A DNA stretch of 64,000 nt, from NCBI GenBank assembly GCA_036273515.1, contig DASUHM010000002.1, positions 748-64,747 on the forward strand. Direction: 5' to 3'. Below the pieces are notes generated by a model, which had not been told where the DNA came from, searched no databases, and saw only the letters and a program-made list of their open reading frames with translations. The position numbers and the translations under genes are program-made. This document shows, piece after piece, positions 34,789-41,578 of this stretch. How positions within the stretch are numbered: the first letter of the stretch is position 1; the number at the start of each line of letters is the position of its first letter. This stretch comes from Gaiellales bacterium. Lineage in GTDB: Bacteria; Actinomycetota; Thermoleophilia; Gaiellales; JAICJC01.

Positions 34789-36708
34789 TCAGACCCCTGT
34801 CGCGGCAGATCGCCTGGTTGCGGCTTCGGCGACGAGCTCGTCGCGCAGCTCGGCCAGCGGGCGGGCGCCCAGGTTGCCCTCGTCGCGGCGGCGCAGCGAG
34901 ACGGCGCCCGCCTCGACCTCCTTGTCGCCGACCACGAGGATGCAGGGGATGCGCTGGTGCTCGGCCTCGGCGATCTTCTTGCCGACCGACTCGGTGCGCA
35001 GGTCGGGCTCGGCCCGCAGGCCGGCAGCGACCAGGTCGGCGGCGACCTGGGTCGCATAGTCGTCGTGACGGTCGGCGACCGGCAGCACGATCGCCTGGAG
35101 CGGCGCCAGCCACAGCGGGAACGCGCCCGCGTAGTGCTCGATCAGGATGCCGATGAAGCGCTCGAATGCGCCGAACAGCGCCCGGTGCACCATCGCCGGC
35201 CGGTGCTCGGCGTTGTCGTCGCCGGTGTAGACCATGTCGAACCGCTCGGGCATCTGGTAGTCGAGCTGGATCGTGCCCATCTGCCACGACCGGCCCACCG
35301 AGTCGGTCATGTGCAGGTCGATCTTGGGGCCGTAGAAGGCGCCGTCGCCCTCGTTCAGGTCGTACTCCTCGCCGGCGCGCGCCAGCGCGTTCGCGAGCGC
35401 CCCCTCCGCCCGGTCCCAGAGGGCGTCGTCGCCGATCCGGTTCTCGGGCCGGGTCGAGAGCTCGAGCCGCACCGGCAGGTCGAAGATGCCGTAGATGTGG
35501 CGGGCCAGCTCGAGGCAGCCGATCACCTCGTCCTCGACCTGATCGTCGGTGCAGAAGATGTGGGCGTCGTCCTGGGTGATGTGGATGACGCGGAGCAGGC
35601 CGTGGAGCGCGCCGGACGGCTCGTCGCGGTGCACCAGCCCCTGCTCGGCGAGCCGCATCGGCAGGTCGCGGTAGCTGCGCCGGGCCGCCTGGTAGATCTC
35701 GACGTGGCCGGGGCAGTTCATCGGCTTCACGCCCAGCGGGCGCTCGTCCTTCTCGGTGAAGAACATGTTCTCGCGGTACTTGTCCCAGTGCCCGGAGCGG
35801 CGCCAGATGTCGACCGAGTAGATGATCGGCGTGCGCACCTCGCGGTAGCCCCAATCCCGGTTCAGCTCGCGCCAGAGCCGGGTCAGCTCGTTCCAGATGA
35901 CCATGCCGCGGGGGTGCCAGAACGGCGCCCCCGGCGCCACGTCGGAGGTGTGGAAGAGGTCGAGCTCGCGGCCGATCCGGCGATGGTCGCGGCGGCGCGC
36001 CTCCTCCAGCAGCCGCAGATGCTCGTCGAGGTCGGCCTGCTTGAAGAAGGCGGTGCCGTAGATGCGGGTGAGCATCGTATTGGCCGAGTCGCCGCGCCAG
36101 TACGCGCCGGCCTGCGAGAGCAGCTTGAACGCCTTGATCGGCGCGGTCGTCTGCAGGTGCGGCCCGCGGCAGAGGTCCTCGAAGTCGTCGTTTCGGTACA
36201 GGCTGATGTCGCCGTCCGGAAGGCCCTCGGCCAGCTCGAGCTTGTACGGCTGGTGCTCCGCCTCGAACCGCGCCAGCAGCCCGGGCTTCTCGACCCCGTC
36301 CTCGCGGACGAAGTCCGCCGGGGTCTTCAGGATGCGGCGCATCTCGGCCTCGATCTTCTCGAGATCCTCGGGCCCGATCGGCTCGGCGAACTCGAAGTCG
36401 TAGTAGAAGCCGTCGGCGATGGCGGGGCCGATCGCGATCTTCGTGTCCGGCCACAGGTGCAGCACGGCCTGCGCCATGACGTGGGCAGTCGAGTGGCGCA
36501 GCACCGCGAGCGCCTCCGGGTCGCGGTCGGTGAGGATGCGCAGGCTCTCCCCCTCGTGTACGGGCAGGCGCAGGTCGCGCACCTCGCCGTCGACCTGGAG
36601 GGCGACTGCGGCCTTGGCCAGGCGGGGGCCGACGGCCGCGGCGGCGTCGAGGCCGCTGGCACCGTCGGGAAGGTCGAGCCCGCTGCCGTCGGGGAGGGTC
36701 ACTTTCAT
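34789..36708 (-). CDS. thrS: Threonine--tRNA ligase
   Basis: The product has a TGS domain (MKVTLPDGSGLDLPDG), class II motifs (FHTSDVAPGAPFWHPRG, RVIHITQDDAHIF) and an anticodon-binding domain. I prefer ATG 36708 because TATGCT lies 7 nt upstream. The track start at 36720 is the alternative. Confidence 0.93.
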   Translation of the reverse strand: MKVTLPDGSGLDLPDGASGLDAAAAVGPRLAKAAVALQVDGEVRDLRLPVHEGESLRILTDRDPEALAVLRHSTAHVMAQAVLHLWPDTKIAIGPAIADGFYYDFEFAEPIGPEDLEKIEAEMRRILKTPADFVREDGVEKPGLLARFEAEHQPYKLELAEGLPDGDISLYRNDDFEDLCRGPHLQTTAPIKAFKLLSQAGAYWRGDSANTMLTRIYGTAFFKQADLDEHLRLLEEARRRDHRRIGRELDLFHTSDVAPGAPFWHPRGMVIWNELTRLWRELNRDWGYREVRTPIIYSVDIWRRSGHWDKYRENMFFTEKDERPLGVKPMNCPGHVEIYQAARRSYRDLPMRLAEQGLVHRDEPSGALHGLLRVIHITQDDAHIFCTDDQVEDEVIGCLELARHIYGIFDLPVRLELSTRPENRIGDDALWDRAEGALANALARAGEEYDLNEGDGAFYGPKIDLHMTDSVGRSWQMGTIQLDYQMPERFDMVYTGDDNAEHRPAMVHRALFGAFERFIGILIEHYAGAFPLWLAPLQAIVLPVADRHDDYATQVAADLVAAGLRAEPDLRTESVGKKIAEAEHQRIPCILVVGDKEVEAGAVSLRRRDEGNLGARPLAELRDELVAEAATRRSAATGV

Positions 36709-36715
36709 GCTCGGC

Positions 36716-36721
36716 AGCATA
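36716..36721 (-). promoter_or_regulatory. -10 box TATGCT, 7 nt upstream of thrS ATG 36708
   Basis: The minus strand reads TATGCT gccgagc ATG. Confidence 0.45.
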
Positions 36722-36735
36722 CAAACGCGCGCTGG

Positions 36736-36741
36736 TACGCT
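36736..36741 (+). promoter_or_regulatory. -10 box TACGCT, 7 nt upstream of kinase ATG 36749
   Basis: Sequence is TACGCT cgccccg ATG. Confidence 0.45.
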
Positions 36742-36748
36742 CGCCCCG

Positions 36749-37894
36749 ATGACAGCGGCGATTGCGGCCTTGGCGGTGGCCCTCGGGATCGCCGTCGTCT
36801 TGCTCGTCCGGACGCGGCGCGATCACGCCGAGGGGGAGGCCGCCCTGGCGCGCGAGCTGCGCGACCGCGTCCCCCGCTCCGAGCTCTCCGAGGCGCGGGC
36901 CGGCCGCGACGCGTTGATGGCGGCCGTCCCCAGCCCGGTGCTCGTGTTCGACGCCGACGGCCGGCTGGTGCGCGCGAACGCGCTCGCCCGGGAGGAGGCA
37001 AGCGCCCTGCTCGACCTCGGCGCGCAGCCCGACCTGGCCGCAGCCGTCGAGTCGGCGCTCACCGGCGGCACCCCGGCCGGCGAGATCGGCCTGACGGTCT
37101 ACGAGCCCGACCGGCGCCGCTACCGCGCCCATCTCCAGGCGTTCCGGGGCGAGGGCGGCGCGCGCTGCGTCGTCGTCCTGACCGACGAGAGCGCCGAGGC
37201 CGACTACCGCGACGCCCGGCGGCTGTTCTCGGCCGGCGTGTCGCACGAGCTGCGCACGCCGCTCCAGCGCATCCTCGGCCTCGTCGAGACGCTCGGGCTC
37301 GACCTGCCCGACGAGGGCCGGGCCGAGATCATCGCCCAGGCCCGGCTGGAGGTCGACGGCATGCGCCGCCTGATCGAGGACATGATCATGCTCGTCCAGC
37401 TCGAGGGCCACCGCGTCGACGGAGCCGGCGAACCGACGGACATGGCCGAGGCGGTCTCGGCATGCCTGCGCCGCCACGCCGACGCCGCCGCCGAGGCGTC
37501 GATGCCGCTCAGCGCGCAGGCCAACCGCGGCCTCGTGGTGGCGGTGCCGCCGCGGCTGGTCGAGGCGGTGCTCGACAACCTGGTCGAGAACGCCATCCGC
37601 CACGCCGGCGAGGGCGAGAGCATCGAGGTGCGCGTCCGCGGCCTCTCGGGCGCCGTCGAGCTCGTCGTCCACGACACCGGCGGCCGCATCCCGCCCGACC
37701 ACCTCGGCCGGGTGTTCGAGCGCTTCCACCGGGTCGAGGACGCGCGGTCCGGCCCGGGGACGGGACTCGGCCTTGCCATCGTGAAGCACATCGCCGAGGA
37801 GTCCGGCGGCCGCGCGACGGCGGAGTCGAGCCCGACGGCGGGCACCACGATGCGGGTCGTGCTGCCCGCGCCTGCTGCTGTCCGAACCGGCTAG
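36749..37894 (+). CDS. Sensor histidine kinase (1 TM, PAS-like, HisKA, HATPase_c)
   Basis: ATG at 36749 in ORF 36419..37894. It has a TM segment (MTAAIAALAVALGIAVVLLV), H-box FSAGVSHELRTPLQ, N-box LDNLVENAIRHA and G-boxes HDTGGRIP and GTGLGLAIV. Confidence 0.85.
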   Translation: MTAAIAALAVALGIAVVLLVRTRRDHAEGEAALARELRDRVPRSELSEARAGRDALMAAVPSPVLVFDADGRLVRANALAREEASALLDLGAQPDLAAAVESALTGGTPAGEIGLTVYEPDRRRYRAHLQAFRGEGGARCVVVLTDESAEADYRDARRLFSAGVSHELRTPLQRILGLVETLGLDLPDEGRAEIIAQARLEVDGMRRLIEDMIMLVQLEGHRVDGAGEPTDMAEAVSACLRRHADAAAEASMPLSAQANRGLVVAVPPRLVEAVLDNLVENAIRHAGEGESIEVRVRGLSGAVELVVHDTGGRIPPDHLGRVFERFHRVEDARSGPGTGLGLAIVKHIAEESGGRATAESSPTAGTTMRVVLPAPAAVRTG

Positions 37895-38553
37895 TTCTGG
37901 CCGGCGTGGACGACGGCGATGTTGAAGTCGGGCCGCCCCAGCGTCCCCATCAGCCGTAGCCACAGCGGCAGGTACATCTCCTGACCGCGGGCGGCGGTGA
38001 TGTCGCCCAGGTCGAGGATCGCGTACTGCGGCCAGCCGAAGGCGCCCAGGATCCCCTCGACGGTCTTCTTCGCCTCGGCGTCGTTCCCGCTGATGAAGAG
38101 CGTGTGGTTGCCCGGCACGCTGGCCGGATCGGTCATGACGGCCTGGTTCACCGAGTTCAGCGTCTTCACGATGCGCGCGTCGGGGAACTCGCGCTGGAGC
38201 CGCTCGCCCACGCTGTCGGTGTTGCAGACCGTCAGCGTCGGCGGCCGTCCCTGGGAGAAGTCGAGCGGGTTGGAGACGTCGACCACGACCTTCCCGGCCA
38301 GATTCTCCGCCCCGGCCGCGCGCAGCGCGTCGACCGCGACGGCGCCGCCCGTGCAGTTGAACACGAGCTCCGCGCCGGACGCGGCGTCGGCGAACGTCCC
38401 CTGCGCGGCACCTCCGCCGGCAGCCGCGACCCATTCGCGGGCGTTCTCGTTGTCCGCCGTCCGCGACCCCATCGTCACCTCGTGGCCGAGCTCGACGAGC
38501 TTCGTCGCGATCGTCCGCCCGACCGTCCCTGTTCCGAGCACTGCAATTTTCAT
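37891..38553 (-). CDS. NADPH-dependent F420 reductase-like / NAD(P)-binding oxidoreductase
   Basis: 220-aa ORF with a Rossmann motif (MKIAVLGTGTVGRTIA). Its start overlaps the response-regulator stop by 1 nt (TGATG). Its stop shares CTAG with the kinase stop. Confidence 0.65.
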   Translation of the reverse strand: MKIAVLGTGTVGRTIATKLVELGHEVTMGSRTADNENAREWVAAAGGGAAQGTFADAASGAELVFNCTGGAVAVDALRAAGAENLAGKVVVDVSNPLDFSQGRPPTLTVCNTDSVGERLQREFPDARIVKTLNSVNQAVMTDPASVPGNHTLFISGNDAEAKKTVEGILGAFGWPQYAILDLGDITAARGQEMYLPLWLRLMGTLGRPDFNIAVVHAGQN

Positions 38554-39257
38554 CAGGCCGGCCCCCTTGCCATCGCCTCGAATCGGTAACCCACCCCCGG
38601 GTGGGTCTGGATGTACGTGTGCGTCGCCGAGCGCTGGTCGAGCTTCTGCCGCAGCTTACGCACGCAGACGTCGACGGTGCGGTCGCGGTAGCGGTACGGC
38701 GTGCCCCAGACGCGCTGCTGCAGCTGGTCGCGGGTGAGCGCCTTGCCCGACTCGCCCGCCAGCACCCACAGGAGCCGGAACTCCGTGCGGGTGAGGCCGG
38801 CGTCCTCGCCCTCGAGGAGCGCCTGGTGCAGGTCGGCGTCGACCACGAGCCCGGGCGCCTCGACACGGCCCGAGTCGCGGTCGGACGGCACCATCCCCGA
38901 CCGCCGCAGCGCCGCCTCGACCCGCGCCACCAGCTCGCGCATCCCGAACGGCTTGGCGAGGTAGTCGTCTGCGCCGATGCGCAGGCCGTGCACCTTGTCG
39001 TGCTCGGAGCCGCGCGCGCTGATCATGATGATCGGGATGGTCGCGCCCTCCGAGCGGAGCGCCTCGGTGATCCGCCAGCCGTCCTCGCCGGGCAGCATCA
39101 GGTCGATCACCGCGATGTCGGGCCGCTCGAAGCGCAGCTTGCGTAGGGCCGCATCGCCATTGTCGGCCCACTCCACGTCCATGCCCGCACCACGCAGGTG
39201 CGTCGCCATGGCGTTCGCGATGACGCGGTCGTCTTCGGCGATCAACACCCGTGGCAT
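38553..39257 (-). CDS. OmpR/PhoB-family response regulator
   Basis: 234-aa ORF with a receiver domain (LIAEDD...DIAVIDLMLPGEDG...KPF) and a winged-helix output domain (LTRTEFRLLWVLA...VGYRF). TAGCCT lies 8 nt upstream of the ATG. Confidence 0.9.
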   Translation of the reverse strand: MPRVLIAEDDRVIANAMATHLRGAGMDVEWADNGDAALRKLRFERPDIAVIDLMLPGEDGWRITEALRSEGATIPIIMISARGSEHDKVHGLRIGADDYLAKPFGMRELVARVEAALRRSGMVPSDRDSGRVEAPGLVVDADLHQALLEGEDAGLTRTEFRLLWVLAGESGKALTRDQLQQRVWGTPYRYRDRTVDVCVRKLRQKLDQRSATHTYIQTHPGVGYRFEAMARGPA

Positions 39258-39395
39258 CGGCGCGAAGGCTAGATGATCGGTTCCACGGCGGCGCGCGCCT
39301 GACCGTCAGGGCTGTTGGCGGGAGTTCGGACGCTGGTGGGCTGCGGCTGCGAGCCGTCGCATCCGCCCAGGACATCACGCCGCCGTGGAACCAAC

Positions 39396-39426
39396 CATCT
39401 CGCCGGTACCAGCTACCGGCGAGATG
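39396..39426. other. Perfect 13-bp stem / 5-nt loop hairpin CATCTCGCCGGTA-ccagc-TACCGGCGAGATG
   Basis: Read directly from the sequence. On the minus strand it is followed by GTTGGTT. It lies within the 430-bp non-coding region. Confidence 0.6.
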
Positions 39427-39653
39427 CGGTTCGCGCCGCTGCGGGGTTAAAAGGATTCGCCGCCCCGGCTTGCCTTTCGTCCCCCGGTCGAACGGACTTT
39501 CGAGTCGCCTCTACGGCCCGTCCGCCCGGCTTCGCTCTACTCGGCTGCCCTCGGCGGCGCAGGGGGGACACTAGGGAGTCGCAAACCCGCTTGCAAGCAA
39601 CGAATTGCCGCACTTTGCGGACATCCGCGAACGTCCGGATTCGGATTGTTCGC

Positions 39654-39675
39654 AAAGACCGAGAATCGGTCTCGG
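39654..39675 (-). terminator. Hairpin GAGACCGA-ttc-TCGGTCTT followed by TTGCG, after the second Clp-N paralog
   Basis: 7-bp stem 13 nt downstream of the stop at 39688, with a short T-run. Confidence 0.45.
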
Positions 39676-39687
39676 CGCCCGGGCCGG

Positions 39688-40377
39688 CTACTCCGGCCGC
39701 GCCTTCCACGAGACGGTGTAGGCGATCGTCCAGCGTGCTCCGCAGACGCCGCAGTCGCGGTCGCCTTGCGCCTCGACGGCGAACGTCGTGCTCGGTTGGC
39801 CGATCGAGATCGTCTCGATCGGCGTGGCGCAGACCGGGCACGCGACGAGCAGCTGGGCGGGCCGGTTGCCGGCGTGCAGGAATGGCGCAGGGTGCGGGGT
39901 CTGGCGAGGTCGCGGCCTTGCCGCCATCTCCTCGTGGCGCCCCGGTCGGGACAGCATCCGGATGAGCTCGCTGCGCACCTTCTGCGGATCGGCGTCGAAG
40001 TCGCGCAGGATCCGCGCTCCCACCCCGCCGTCCTCCCGCACCAGGCCGAGCAGGATGTGCTCGGTGCCGATGTAGTTGTGATCGAGCTCGAGCGCCTCCT
40101 GCAGCGCCAGCTCGAGCACCTTCTTCACCCGCGGCGTGAACGGGATCTGGCCGGTGTCGACCTCGTCACCCTGGCCGACGATGCGAGCGACCTGCGCGCG
40201 TACCTCGTCGGCGGTGATGTCGAGGGTGTCGAGGACGCGAGCCGCCAGCCCGTCCTCCTCGCGCAGCAGGCCGAGCAGGATGTGCTCGGTGCCGATGTAG
40301 TTGTGCTTGAGGAGTCTCGCCTCATCCTGGGCCAACACGACCACCTGACGGGCCCGCTCGGTAAAGCGTTCGAACAT
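39688..40377 (-). CDS. Clp-N (ClpA/B/C N-terminal repeat) domain protein with C-terminal CxxC...CxxC zinc-ribbon, paralog 2
   Basis: 229-aa ORF. The N-terminus MFERFTERARQVVVLAQDEARLLKHNYIGTEHILLGLLRE is the ClpC-type N-domain, and a second repeat is present. There is no AAA+ module. The C-terminus reads ACPVCATPIET...GDRDCGVCGARWTIAYTVS. Confidence 0.85.
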   Translation of the reverse strand: MFERFTERARQVVVLAQDEARLLKHNYIGTEHILLGLLREEDGLAARVLDTLDITADEVRAQVARIVGQGDEVDTGQIPFTPRVKKVLELALQEALELDHNYIGTEHILLGLVREDGGVGARILRDFDADPQKVRSELIRMLSRPGRHEEMAARPRPRQTPHPAPFLHAGNRPAQLLVACPVCATPIETISIGQPSTTFAVEAQGDRDCGVCGARWTIAYTVSWKARPE

Positions 40378-40401
40378 GACGTCAGTCTCGCAGAGCCGCC
40401 G

Positions 40402-41031
40402 CTACCCGGACAGCTCGCGTAGCGAGACGGTGTAGGCGATCGACCACCGCTTGCCGCAGTTGTGGCAGGTGCGATCGCCCTCGGCGGAGACGTCGAGGTT
40501 CGAGCCGGACCTCTCGCGGATGACCGTCTCCAGCCCCTGGCCGCACGCGGGGCATGCGATCACGACCTGCCGGATCCGGTCCGGTCCCCGCCGGCTCGGC
40601 GGCGGAAGCCGGCCGATGACCTCGTTTCGGATGGTCTCGGCATCCGCGTCGAACTCGAGCAGGATGCGTGCCGCGACGCCCTCGTTCTCGCGGACGAGGC
40701 CGAGCAGGATGTGCTCGGTCGCGATGTAGTCATGGCCGAGCGAAAGCGACTCCCGCAGCGCCAGCTCGAGCACATTCCTGGCCCGTGGAGTGAAGGCGAT
40801 CTGGCCGGTGACGACCTCATCTCCCTGAGCGACGATCCGGGCGACCTGCGCACGCACCTCCTCTTCGGTGACGTGGAGGGTCTCCAGGACGCGGGCAGCG
40901 AGGCCGTCCTCCTCGCGCAGCAGGCCCAGCAGGATGTGCTCGGTGCCGATGTAGTCGTGCTTCAGCGTGCGGGCCTCGTCCTGCGCGAGGACGACCACCT
41001 GGCGGGCCCGCTCCGTGAACCGTTCGAACAT
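40402..41031 (-). CDS. Clp-N domain protein with C-terminal zinc-ribbon, paralog 1
   Basis: 209-aa ORF with the same architecture. The C-terminus reads ACPACGQGLET...GDRTCHNCGKRWSIAYTVS. It shares a 15-nt upstream block, GCTCTGCGAGACTGA, with paralog 2. Confidence 0.85.
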   Translation of the reverse strand: MFERFTERARQVVVLAQDEARTLKHDYIGTEHILLGLLREEDGLAARVLETLHVTEEEVRAQVARIVAQGDEVVTGQIAFTPRARNVLELALRESLSLGHDYIATEHILLGLVRENEGVAARILLEFDADAETIRNEVIGRLPPPSRRGPDRIRQVVIACPACGQGLETVIRERSGSNLDVSAEGDRTCHNCGKRWSIAYTVSLRELSG

Positions 41032-41170
41032 ACCCTCAGTCTCGCAGAGCGGTCATCGCCGTTCGTCTTTGCCGCAGCCGGGCCGGGTGGCTGTGACGGA
41101 GGACTTCGCCTTCCGCGGCGGAGGCGAGACCGCGCTCTCGCCGGAGCGCACGAGGGCCCGCCACATCCCC

Positions 41171-41202
41171 GACGCGGGGGGACCCATGGGTTCCCCCGCG
41201 TC
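41171..41202. terminator. GC hairpin GACGCGGGGG-gacccatgggtt-CCCCCGCGTC enclosing the Nudix stop codon
   Basis: 10-bp perfect stem whose inner CCCATGGG is also palindromic. There is no U-tract. Confidence 0.4.
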
Positions 41203-41578
41203 AAAGATGCTTGCGCGCGCGGGCGAGCACGTCCCGGTCGGTGGCGTAGGTGAGGAGCTCCTCGACGCCGTCCGGGGCGAGCCAGCGCACGTCGTCGACG
41301 TCGTCGGCCGTGTCGATCGCGTCGGCGCAGGCGGTCATCAGATACCAGCGGACGGTCTTCGGGCGGCCGCTGGCGACCTCGTAGGAGACCGTGCCGAGAT
41401 CCCGCTCGATGACCGCCTCGCGGCCCGTCTCCTCGCGCACCTCGCGCACGGCCGCGGTCGCGTCGTCCTCGCCGGGCTCGAGCTTGCCCTTCGGCAGCGA
41501 CCAGTCGCCGTGCTGCGGCCGGTGGACGACCGCGATCAGCCCATCACGGCGCACGACCCCGCCGGCCGCGCGGATCAT
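41201..41578 (-). CDS. Nudix hydrolase
   Basis: 125-aa ORF with the Nudix box GKLEPGEDDATAAVREVREETG. Its ATG overlaps the upstream stop (ATGA). Confidence 0.9.
   Translation of the reverse strand: MIRAAGGVVRRDGLIAVVHRPQHGDWSLPKGKLEPGEDDATAAVREVREETGREAVIERDLGTVSYEVASGRPKTVRWYLMTACADAIDTADDVDDVRWLAPDGVEELLTYATDRDVLARARKHL

What the first reader, a model, noticed from the sequence alone, without database searches (positions are those of the whole stretch)
39688..41031. Tandem paralogs fusing a ClpC-type N-domain to a novel C-terminal zinc ribbon, with no AAA+ module
Two adjacent genes (209 and 229 aa) each encode the double-repeat Clp-N domain, with an N-terminus nearly identical to ClpC (MFERFTERARQVVVLAQDEAR..KH.YIGTEHILLGLLREEDG).

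Instead of ATPase modules, each continues through a divergent linker into a ~55-aa module: ACPxCxxxxET-N12/13-GDRxCxxCGxRWxIAYTVS. This has four Cys in two knuckles, so it is zinc-ribbon-like.

The paralogs differ at many synonymous sites, which points to an old duplication with both copies retained. They still share a 15-nt block, GCTCTGCGAGACTGA, just upstream of each ATG.

Stand-alone Clp-N proteins such as mycobacterial ClpC2 are known as partners or decoys for ClpC ligands. I do not recognise the C-terminal ribbon fusion. It could be an adaptor, an anti-adaptor or a nucleic-acid-tethered sensor for the Clp machinery.
Basis: partly seen in the sequence, partly recalled or inferred. Interest (0 to 1): 0.7.

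Follow-up and report, generated by a model that had tools for sequence, protein, structure and literature searches.

The report
ClpC N-domain decoys with zinc ribbon
Two adjacent, intact genes in an uncultured soil actinobacterium (Gaiellales) each encode a copy of the substrate-receptor domain of the ClpC protein-degradation machine, joined to a small, uncatalogued zinc-binding module instead of the motor. They most likely compete with ClpC for its ligands, as the known mycobacterial decoys ClpC2 and ClpC3 do.

Summary
Two minus-strand genes (40402-41031, 209 aa; 39688-40377, 229 aa) each encode a full double-repeat Clp_N domain. It is 61% identical to the M. tuberculosis ClpC1 N-domain. A linker and a 56-aa four-cysteine module follow; there is no AAA+ part.

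The tail alone models confidently (pLDDT 90) as a four-stranded zinc ribbon. It matches no Pfam or NCBIfam family above threshold and no solved fold.

An exhaustive profile search of 1.84 billion representatives finds about 50 clusters. Every one has the ribbon after one to three Clp_N domains. Every member that carries a taxon name is Gaiellales or an unclassified actinobacterial MAG.

The tandem pair and its synteny recur in three lineages. Both copies are under purifying selection (dN/dS 0.19-0.29), so neither is a pseudogene.

The shared 15-nt block is a family-specific element. Its geometry is that of an extended -10 promoter for leaderless mRNA, and it is absent from the two true clpC loci examined.

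Both phosphoarginine pockets and the cyclic-peptide groove are conserved. My best reading is a ClpC-N-domain mimic that buffers ClpC ligands, with the ribbon as a self-association or docking module. Function is inferred, not shown. This is a new variant of the known "small Clp" kind.

The parts
40402..41031 (-). Gene A, 209 aa: Clp_N domain + short linker + zinc ribbon
   Evidence: ORF and coding-type GC3. Exact match to NCBI 'Clp protease N-terminal domain-containing protein [Gaiellales bacterium]'. Ortholog dN/dS 0.23-0.29.
40603..41031 (-). Gene A Clp_N double-repeat domain (residues 1-143)
   Evidence: Pfam PF02861, two repeats, E 9e-34. 177 bits and 61% identity to Mtb ClpC1 NTD. F2, T6, R8, T30/E31, F80, T81, E89, T105/E106 and R122 retained; K85 is replaced by R.
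40405..40572 (-). Gene A zinc-ribbon module (residues 154-209; Cys160, 163, 189, 192)
   Evidence: Invariant CxxC...CxxC. AF2 pLDDT 90, four antiparallel strands with knuckles between b1/b2 and b3/b4. Ortholog dN/dS 0.15-0.35.
41036..41050 (-). Conserved block GCTCTGCGAGACTGA at -19 to -5 of gene A: extended -10-like element (T-15 G-14, GAGACT at -12..-7)
   Evidence: Conserved upstream of non-syntenic family genes.
39688..40377 (-). Gene B, 229 aa: Clp_N domain + longer Pro/Arg-rich linker + zinc ribbon
   Evidence: Ortholog dN/dS 0.19-0.26.
39949..40377 (-). Gene B Clp_N double-repeat domain (residues 1-143)
   Evidence: Pfam PF02861, E 1.5e-36. K85/K86 as in ClpC1.
39691..39858 (-). Gene B zinc-ribbon module (residues 174-229; first Cys at 180)
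   Evidence: Ortholog dN/dS 0.20-0.42.
40382..40396 (-). Second copy of the conserved block, inside the 24-nt A-B spacer, at -19 to -5 of gene B
   Evidence: Also present before the gene B orthologs in L012-L015.
39651..39677 (-). Hairpin immediately 3' of the gene B stop codon; possible end of the transcription unit
   Evidence: Inverted repeat I14. It did not meet the T-tract rule of the terminator scan.

Best explanation
These are 'small Clp' proteins: free-standing paralogs of the ClpC N-terminal receptor domain.

They keep the ligand sites of that domain: two phosphoarginine pockets, the hydrophobic groove used by unfolded segments and by cyclomarin- or rufomycin-type peptides, and the residues that contact the ClpC M-domain. 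They have no ATPase and no ClpP-docking part.

They would therefore bind the same ligands as ClpC without degrading them. That would buffer or compete with ClpC-dependent proteolysis, as shown experimentally for mycobacterial ClpC2 and ClpC3.

The C-terminal C4 zinc ribbon has a conserved alternating aromatic/aliphatic pattern (W-x-I-x-Y-x-V-x-W) on its last strand. I infer that these side chains line one face of the strand and that the ribbon is a self-association or partner-docking module giving multivalency. Each gene appears to be its own leaderless transcription unit under a family-specific extended -10-like element.

Shown here: domain identity, residue conservation, predicted ribbon fold, exclusivity of the fusion, purifying selection, and the conserved cis element. 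Inferred: ligand binding, competition with ClpC, ribbon-mediated oligomerisation, and leaderless transcription.
For: - The Clp_N domain is far closer to ClpC1 NTD (177 bits, 61% identity) than to the ClpC2 domain (64-79 bits).
- Family-wide invariant or near-invariant residues include F2, T6, R8, T30, E31, F80, T81, R83, E89, T105, E106 and R122.
- These are the residues reported for CymA binding (F2, F80, E89). They also match the pArg pockets and resting-state contacts T7, R9, E32, E106, K85 and R122 in S. aureus numbering. The N-terminal part is offset by one residue.
- The proteins end at 209 and 229 aa. Their scores against the ClpA/B/C/K/G/V models are 28-73 bits, against cut-offs of 885 or more.
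- The ribbon is found only after Clp_N domains. Architectures are 1-3 Clp_N domains with 1-2 ribbons. Apparent stand-alone ribbons are the 3' parts of frameshifted or truncated Clp_N-ribbon genes.
- The ribbon tails are not basic: I count a net charge of about +1 and -1 from the sequences. This argues against a classical DNA-binding finger.
- N-domains of distant members are 94-98% identical while their tails differ widely (tail identities).
- Purifying selection acts on both domains of both paralogs.
- ClpC2 and ClpC3 are established ligand sponges and competitors of ClpC1.
Against: - There is no experimental or interaction data for any member.
- The full-length model is poor (pTM 0.36), so the ribbon/Clp_N arrangement and any oligomer are unknown.
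- No multimer prediction could be run.
- No arginine kinase is known in Actinomycetota, so the physiological ligand is uncertain.
- The strictly conserved, non-consensus upstream block hints at a dedicated regulator, possibly the protein itself. That would add a role not covered by a pure decoy model.
- One subclade (L007, L009, P0126) has lost pArg site 2, so ligand use is not uniform across the family.
Confidence: 0.5

Rival explanations
1. ClpC2-like ligand-responsive autoregulator. The ribbon binds nucleic acid at the family-specific CTCTGCGARACTGA element overlapping the gene's own -10/start region. Occupancy of the Clp_N domain by pArg or another ligand releases it. This would be functional convergence with ClpC2, using an unrelated DNA-binding module at the opposite end of the protein.
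For: - ClpC2 is an autorepressor whose operator lies 1-2 nt upstream of a leaderless ORF, and it is released by CymA or pArg.
- In the loci fetched up to that point, the pattern TGC[GA]A[GA]ACT occurs 16 times, always about 15 nt before a Clp_N-ribbon start codon. It is absent from the true clpC loci L016 and L017. The window's two copies sit the same way.
- The block is conserved across non-syntenic loci whose tails are only 44-72% identical to gene B's tail.
- The block is an imperfect reverse complement of codons 5-8, with the dyad on the start codon. 82% of cells are pairable, against 52% or less when the pairing is slid.
- Many zinc ribbons bind nucleic acids.
Against: - The block itself is not a palindrome.
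- The tails are near-neutral in charge (counted from the sequences).
- The 3' arm of the inverted repeat is fixed by the invariant FTER codons, so pairing is not independent evidence. Covariation is weak.
- Rare AT-rich codons are enriched throughout the first 7 codons, which explains the ACA bias without pairing.
- Deeper subfamilies (L005, L018, L019) have only a generic -10-like hexamer at -12..-7 instead of the block.
- Gene A in L010 and L012 has no block at all.
Confidence: 0.18
2. Adaptor or anti-adaptor of ClpC. The ribbon docks onto a cargo protein, onto ClpC (M-domain or AAA1) or onto an adaptor. The Clp_N domain then either inserts in trans into ClpC assemblies or sequesters an NTD-binding adaptor, switching ClpC between its resting and active states.
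For: - NTD residues that anchor the ClpC resting state (R9, K85 and R122 in S. aureus numbering) are retained.
- The ribbon has a conserved hydrophobic pattern suited to protein contacts.
- The two paralogs differ strongly in the ribbon (dN 0.54, dN/dS 0.75) and in linker length, which is consistent with different partners.
Against: - Across the family there is no conserved neighbouring gene that could be a cargo or partner.
- No interaction could be modelled.
- Known ClpC adaptors bind the NTD rather than resemble it.
Confidence: 0.17
3. ClpT-like accessory of the ClpP core: a Clp_N-only protein that binds the peptidase ring and regulates its assembly, as in chloroplasts.
For: Plant ClpT1 and ClpT2 are stand-alone double Clp_N proteins. 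They are detected as distant relatives (E about 3e-6, 30 bits).
Against: Similarity to ClpT is far weaker than to ClpC NTD (30 versus 177 bits). ClpT has no ribbon. Nothing here links the genes to clpP.
Confidence: 0.04
4. Non-functional 5' fragments of clpC, or assembly artefacts.
For: Several database relatives are frameshifted or chimeric (L008, L020, P0131, P0007).
Against: - Both genes are intact here and in four further contigs.
- dN/dS is 0.19-0.29.
- The four Cys are invariant.
- The synteny is conserved.
- The window's own sequence is reproduced in an independent ENA contig.
Confidence: 0.02

Closest known systems
Mycobacterial ClpC2 (Rv2667), a small Clp protein, antibiotic sponge and pArg/CymA-responsive autorepressor
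   Same: - Stand-alone homolog of the ClpC1 N-domain with no ATPase.
- Fused to one extra small domain.
- Actinobacterial.
- Short or absent leader, with a conserved element abutting the start codon.
- Conserved CymA-contact residues.
   Different: - Domain order is reversed: here Clp_N is N-terminal.
- The extra domain is a C4 zinc ribbon, not the ClpC2 N-terminal dimerisation/DNA-binding domain.
- Both pArg sites are kept, whereas ClpC2 keeps one.
- The Clp_N domain is much closer to ClpC1 (177 bits) than to ClpC2 (64-79 bits).
- The ClpC2 operator CGTCAAC-n5-GTTGACG is absent.
Mycobacterial ClpC3 (Hoi et al. 2023, known here only through reviews)
   Same: A small Clp protein with a ClpC1-NTD-like domain. 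It binds cyclomarin and ecumicin and competes with ClpC1.
   Different: ClpC3 is reported to lack the pArg receptor, whereas this family keeps both pockets. Every listed hit of the exhaustive ribbon search whose sequence was read is a relative of these genes, a fragment of one, or unrelated; none that carries a taxon name is mycobacterial. I could not read the primary paper, so the ClpC3 architecture was not compared directly.
N-terminal domain of ClpC/ClpC1 itself
   Same: 61% identity. Same double repeat, pArg pockets and hydrophobic groove.
   Different: Not followed by AAA+ modules. It is encoded by separate genes with their own upstream element, which the two true clpC loci examined lack.
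Generic C4 zinc ribbons (bL32, LysW, Trm112, Lar, Zn_ribbon_3)
   Same: CxxC...CxxC in two beta-hairpin knuckles. Weak profile matches, for example bL32 at E 1e-6 over half the module.
   Different: No hit reaches a curated cut-off. No structural neighbour has E<1. The module has long b3-b4 strands with its own signature, GDRxCxxCGxxWxIxYxVxW.
Plant ClpT1/ClpT2
   Same: Stand-alone double Clp_N proteins that regulate a Clp protease.
   Different: Very distant in sequence (30 bits). No ribbon. They act on the ClpP core.

Membership tests
Clp_N (PF02861) double-repeat domain | Two Clp_N repeats scoring above the Pfam gathering threshold | tested here: met
   115.8 and 124.7 bits against a cut-off of 20.7, two stretches each.
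Class I Clp/Hsp100 AAA+ unfoldase (ClpC/ClpA/ClpB) | AAA+ modules following the N-domain; whole-protein score above the NCBIfam cut-off | tested here: not met
   The proteins end at 209 and 229 aa. Scores are 28-73 bits against cut-offs of 885-1900, and matches cover only the N-domain. No further Clp-like sequence is found in the window by tblastn.
ClpC2 (mycobacterial small Clp repressor) | A domain homologous to the ClpC1 NTD | tested here: met
   Hits to ClpC2 structures 8b9o, 9p2p and 8ad9 at E 1e-16 to 1e-21, but much weaker than to ClpC1 NTD (E 1e-51).
ClpC2 (mycobacterial small Clp repressor) | N-terminal (about 90 aa) dimerisation/DNA-binding domain preceding the Clp_N-like domain | tested here: not met
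   Clp_N starts at residue 1 (MFERFTER...). The extra domain is C-terminal and is a Cys4 ribbon (ClpC2 architecture).
ClpC2 (mycobacterial small Clp repressor) | Operator CGTCAAC-n5-GTTGACG 1-2 nt upstream of the ORF | tested here: not met
   With up to 3 mismatches there is no match between 39200 and 41300.
ClpC2 (mycobacterial small Clp repressor) | Only one of the two ClpC1 pArg sites conserved | tested here: not met
   Both the T30/E31 and T105/E106 motifs, plus T6 and T81, are conserved (site definitions).
ClpC2 (mycobacterial small Clp repressor) | Autorepression relieved by pArg or CymA | not testable with these tools
   Needs EMSA or reporter assays.
C4 zinc ribbon (structural class) | Four invariant Cys as two CxxC knuckles, each at the turn of a beta-hairpin | tested here: met
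   C7, C10, C36 and C39 are invariant in 25 tails. The AF2 model has pLDDT 90 with strands 2-6, 13-18, 26-35 and 42-51.
C4 zinc ribbon (structural class) | Membership of a curated zinc-ribbon family (Pfam or NCBIfam score above cut-off) | tested here: not met
   The best hit is Zn_ribbon_3 at 24 bits against a cut-off of 27. No family is matched by more than 7 of 25 tails.
C4 zinc ribbon (structural class) | Binds zinc | not testable with these tools
   Needs metal analysis of purified protein.
Anti-phage defence components (PADLOC) | Match to any PADLOC model | tested here: not met
   No family at E<=0.01.

The most novel reading that the evidence does not exclude
The ribbon is a sequence-specific nucleic-acid-binding module, and these proteins are phosphoarginine- or ligand-responsive autoregulators. 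They would bind the family-specific CTCTGCGARACTGA element over their own leaderless promoter. That would be an independent re-invention of the ClpC2 sensor-repressor logic, with an unrelated DNA-binding domain on the other end of the receptor. It would imply that pArg signalling is widespread in Actinomycetota.
Probability: 0.17. Interest if true: 0.7.

Novelty: new variant of a known kind. Interest (0 to 1): 0.5.

Why it matters
ClpC1 is a leading antibacterial target, and the decoys ClpC2 and ClpC3 blunt ClpC1-directed natural products and BacPROTACs.

This finding shows that a distant actinobacterial order, abundant in soil, has independently expanded free ClpC N-domain copies. Architectures combine one to three receptor domains with one or two ribbons. 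The partner domain is new and would merit its own family entry.

This has three consequences.
- It broadens the "small Clp" concept beyond the mycobacterial ClpC2/ClpC3 examples.
- It points to an environmental reservoir of potential sponges for ClpC-targeting peptides.
- It offers a compact receptor-plus-ribbon scaffold for testing how pArg or degron sensing is wired in bacteria with no known arginine kinase.

Tried and rejected
- **Locus scans.** A genome-collection scan with the ribbon alignment had no stretch conserved enough to search. A scan with the single tail confirmed nothing. Only a closer sub-alignment worked, giving 6 loci.
- **Full-length structure.** The full-length AF2 model was poor (pTM 0.36). 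Its Foldseek hits only restate the Clp_N homology.
- **Ribbon structure.** Foldseek with the ribbon model found nothing with E<1.
- **RNA and signal scans.** Rfam found no RNA family in 39200-41300. The consensus promoter/terminator scan found nothing.
- **Other libraries and motifs.** PADLOC gave no hit. The ClpC2 operator is absent.
- **Gene neighbourhood.** It is not conserved across the family. There are two local syntenies: LysR-membrane-NUDIX-A-B-RR for the close orthologs, and ksgA-ispE...glmU-prs for a deeper subfamily.
- **Stand-alone ribbons.** The short ORFs returned looked like stand-alone ribbons. L020 shows the Clp_N part just upstream in shifted frames, so I reject a free-ribbon form.
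- **Pairing with codons 5-8.** I tested whether the upstream block pairs with codons 5-8 as an RNA hairpin or a DNA dyad. The arms are complementary, but covariation is weak. The striking ACA codon bias is matched by a general excess of rare AT-rich codons at the 5' end. I leave this as inconclusive.
- **Primary ClpC3 paper.** It is not in the library.
Full report
**1. What is in the sequence**

On the minus strand lie two intact ORFs: 40402-41031 (gene A, 209 aa) and 39688-40377 (gene B, 229 aa), separated by 24 nt. Both have the codon-position GC pattern of real genes in this 72% GC window (GC3 0.90).

Pfam finds two Clp_N repeats in each (E 9e-34 and 1.5e-36) and nothing else above threshold. 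NCBIfam matches only the N-domains of the ClpK/B/A/G/V models, at 28-73 bits against cut-offs of 885-1900. There is therefore no AAA+ part.

The proteins are 60% identical overall. tblastn finds no further Clp-like sequence in the window.

Gene A is identical to an NCBI entry named [quoted passage not shown]. Gaiellales is an order of the class Thermoleophilia, phylum Actinomycetota.

**2. The two domains**

*The Clp_N domain.* It is 61% identical to the M. tuberculosis ClpC1 N-domain (177 bits, E 1e-51). It is much further from the ClpC2 domain (64-79 bits) and from plant ClpT (30 bits).

Across 24 family members the following residues are invariant or nearly so: F2, T6, R8, T30, E31, F80, T81, R83, E89, T105, E106 and R122. 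These correspond to published functional residues.
- F2, F80 and E89 are the contacts for cyclomarin in ClpC1.
- T7, E32 and E106 form the two phosphoarginine pockets, and R9, K85 and R122 anchor the ClpC resting state (S. aureus numbering). The N-terminal part is offset by one residue.
- Gene B keeps K85/K86, while gene A has R85/N86.

*The tail.* An alignment of 25 tails has four invariant Cys. The tail alone gives a confident AlphaFold2 model: pLDDT 90, with four antiparallel strands and the CxxC knuckles at the b1/b2 and b3/b4 turns. That is a zinc ribbon.

The last strand carries a conserved W-x-I-x-Y-x-V-x-W pattern. I infer, from strand alternation only, that these side chains line one face. 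From the sequences I count a net charge near zero for both tails.

No curated family is reached. The best hit is Zn_ribbon_3 at 24 bits against a cut-off of 27, and no family is matched by more than 7 of 25 tails. A PDB profile search gives only generic partial ribbon matches such as bL32 and LysW. Foldseek against the PDB gives no hit with E<1.

**3. How widespread it is**

A profile of the ribbon was scored against all 1.84 billion representatives. It returns 91 proteins at E<=0.001 and 36 at E<=1e-10.

Reading the sequences shows that every true hit carries the ribbon after Clp_N domains, or is a fragment of such a gene. The architectures are listed below.

| Architecture | Length (aa) |
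|---|---|
| Clp_N + ribbon | 205-238 |
| Clp_N + 2 ribbons | 303-317 |
| 2 Clp_N + ribbon | 363-367 |
| 2 Clp_N + 2 ribbons | 480 |
| 3 Clp_N + ribbon | 508 |

Short "ribbon-only" ORFs returned by the word-indexed search are gene-calling products of frameshifted genes. In L020 the Clp_N part lies just upstream in shifted frames.

Every member with a taxon name is Gaiellales or Gaiellaceae. The six hits in species-representative genomes are all MAGs, labelled Gaiellales or "uncultured Actinomycetes".

N-domains of distant members are 94-98% identical to each other and 81-90% identical to N-domains of fragments that carry ClpC-type AAA+ motifs. Their tails can be only about 25-45% identical to gene A's tail.

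**4. The tandem pair**

The arrangement LysR - membrane protein - NUDIX - A - B - response regulator recurs in contigs from three further samples (L012; L013, L014 and L015). Their orthologs are 83-88% identical to the window's genes.

A syntenic MAG locus (L010) has a single family gene at this position.

| Comparison | dN/dS |
|---|---|
| Gene A orthologs, whole gene | 0.23-0.29 |
| Gene B orthologs, whole gene | 0.19-0.26 |
| Ribbon only, gene A orthologs | 0.15-0.35 |
| Ribbon only, gene B orthologs | 0.20-0.42 |

Neither copy is decaying.

Between the two paralogs, dS is about 0.70. dN/dS is 0.21 for Clp_N and 0.75 for the ribbon.

In a neighbour-joining tree without support values, A and B fall in different clades, each with single-copy relatives in other genomes. 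The duplication is therefore old, and the ribbons have diverged much more than the receptor domains.

**5. The shared 15-nt block**

GCTCTGCGAGACTGA lies at -19 to -5 of both start codons and nowhere else in the window.

The same element, with consensus CTCTGCGARACTGA, precedes family genes in non-syntenic loci: L002, L004, L006, L007, L008, L009 and L011, and the orthologous pairs. L020 carries a related TGCGAGAAT seven nucleotides before its ATG.

In the loci fetched up, the pattern TGC[GA]A[GA]ACT occurs 16 times. Every occurrence is on the coding strand about 15 nt before a Clp_N-ribbon start codon. The two true clpC loci (L016, L017) lack it, and L016 has an ordinary Shine-Dalgarno sequence.

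The geometry is that of an extended -10 promoter whose transcription start is the first base of the start codon: T at -15, G at -14, then a hexamer at -12..-7 with A at -11 and T at -7. There is no conserved Shine-Dalgarno sequence.

Deeper subfamilies lack the block but still have a -10-like hexamer with A at -11 and T at -7 in exactly that position: TACTGT, TATGCT and CAGAAT.

Rare AT-rich codons (ACA, GAA, TTT) are enriched in the first seven codons, as expected for an unstructured leaderless 5' end.

I conclude that each gene is probably its own leaderless transcription unit. This is an inference; no 5'-end data exist.

There are exceptions. Gene A in L010 and L012 abuts the NUDIX stop codon with no block, and gene B in L012 has C at -7.

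The conservation of a non-consensus 14-mer goes beyond what a housekeeping -10 element needs, which hints at a dedicated factor. The block is also an imperfect reverse complement of codons 5-8, but covariation is weak and one arm is fixed by coding. I do not build on this.

**6. What it most likely does**

Mycobacterial ClpC2 and ClpC3 are free ClpC1-NTD homologs. They bind the same ligands as ClpC1, sponge cyclomarin or rufomycin, and compete for degrons. ClpC2 is in addition a pArg- and CymA-released autorepressor, through a separate N-terminal domain.

The present proteins keep a more complete ClpC ligand repertoire than ClpC2, because both pArg pockets are retained. They cannot unfold substrates or dock to ClpP.

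The most economical mechanism is therefore competitive binding of ClpC ligands, a buffer or "caretaker" role. The ribbon would provide self-association or partner docking. The family's habit of multiplying either domain fits selection for valency.

I rate this reading at about 0.5. The rivals are:
- a ClpC2-like autoregulator using the ribbon on the conserved block (0.18);
- an adaptor or anti-adaptor acting on ClpC assemblies (0.17);
- a ClpT-like ClpP accessory (0.04);
- dead gene fragments (0.02, contradicted by the selection data).

**7. Comparison and novelty**

The genes work like small Clp proteins, but they fail the defining features of ClpC2. The extra domain is different and sits at the other end, there is no ClpC2 operator, and both pArg sites are kept.

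ClpC3 is reported to lack the pArg receptor. None of the named members of the ribbon family is mycobacterial.

The literature held here has no description of a Clp_N-zinc-ribbon fusion.

I class this as a new variant of a known kind, with a new small domain. All functional statements are inferred from homology and conservation.

Noticed in passing
window 41060-41150 (minus strand, upstream of gene A): A non-coding stretch of about 80 nt is 87% identical to the same position in L013, L014 and L015. That is more conserved than synonymous sites of the flanking genes. It is absent from L012 and L010, where gene A abuts the NUDIX stop codon. There is no 3-nt periodicity in the substitutions and no Rfam hit.
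   Followed up: partly
window 41164-41209: A near-perfect 26-nt palindrome lies directly after the NUDIX gene stop codon. It is probably the terminator that separates NUDIX from gene A in this lineage.
   Followed up: no
window 39396-39426: A perfect 13-bp inverted repeat, CATCTCGCCGGTA-N5-TACCGGCGAGATG, lies in the 430-bp spacer between gene B and the OmpR-type response-regulator gene. It could be an operator or a terminator.
   Followed up: no
L005 6001-7092 and L018 3001-3627: A deeper subfamily with tail motif RYDLRYRIEWRPA (208-367 aa, including forms with two Clp_N domains) sits in a conserved housekeeping region: TatD, RsmA/KsgA, IspE, an aldo-keto reductase, then GlmU, Prs, L25 and Pth.
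   Followed up: partly
proteins P0012, P0026, P0046: The same metagenomic sources also hold proteins of about 305 aa with two Clp_N domains and no ribbon and no AAA+ part. The lineage therefore appears to have a broader expansion of free ClpC N-domains.
   Followed up: no
L007 3485-4171, L009 3524-4171, protein P0126: One clade of ribbon proteins has lost the second pArg pocket (DTHH instead of GTEH, FTPSAT instead of FTPRAK) but keeps the first. This parallels the single site of ClpC2.
   Followed up: no
L008 3484-4171 and L020 2020-2668: Homologs in long MAG contigs are interrupted by frameshifts. These are either pseudogenes or indel errors of the assemblies. They generate spurious 'ribbon-only' ORFs in protein databases.
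   Followed up: yes
window 36419-39257: Downstream of the pair lie a response-regulator gene (minus strand), an F420-dependent NADP oxidoreductase gene (minus strand) and a histidine-kinase gene on the opposite strand. The regulator follows the pair in L014, and the partial gene after the pair in L015 was not annotated. Its link to the Clp_N genes is unknown.
   Followed up: no
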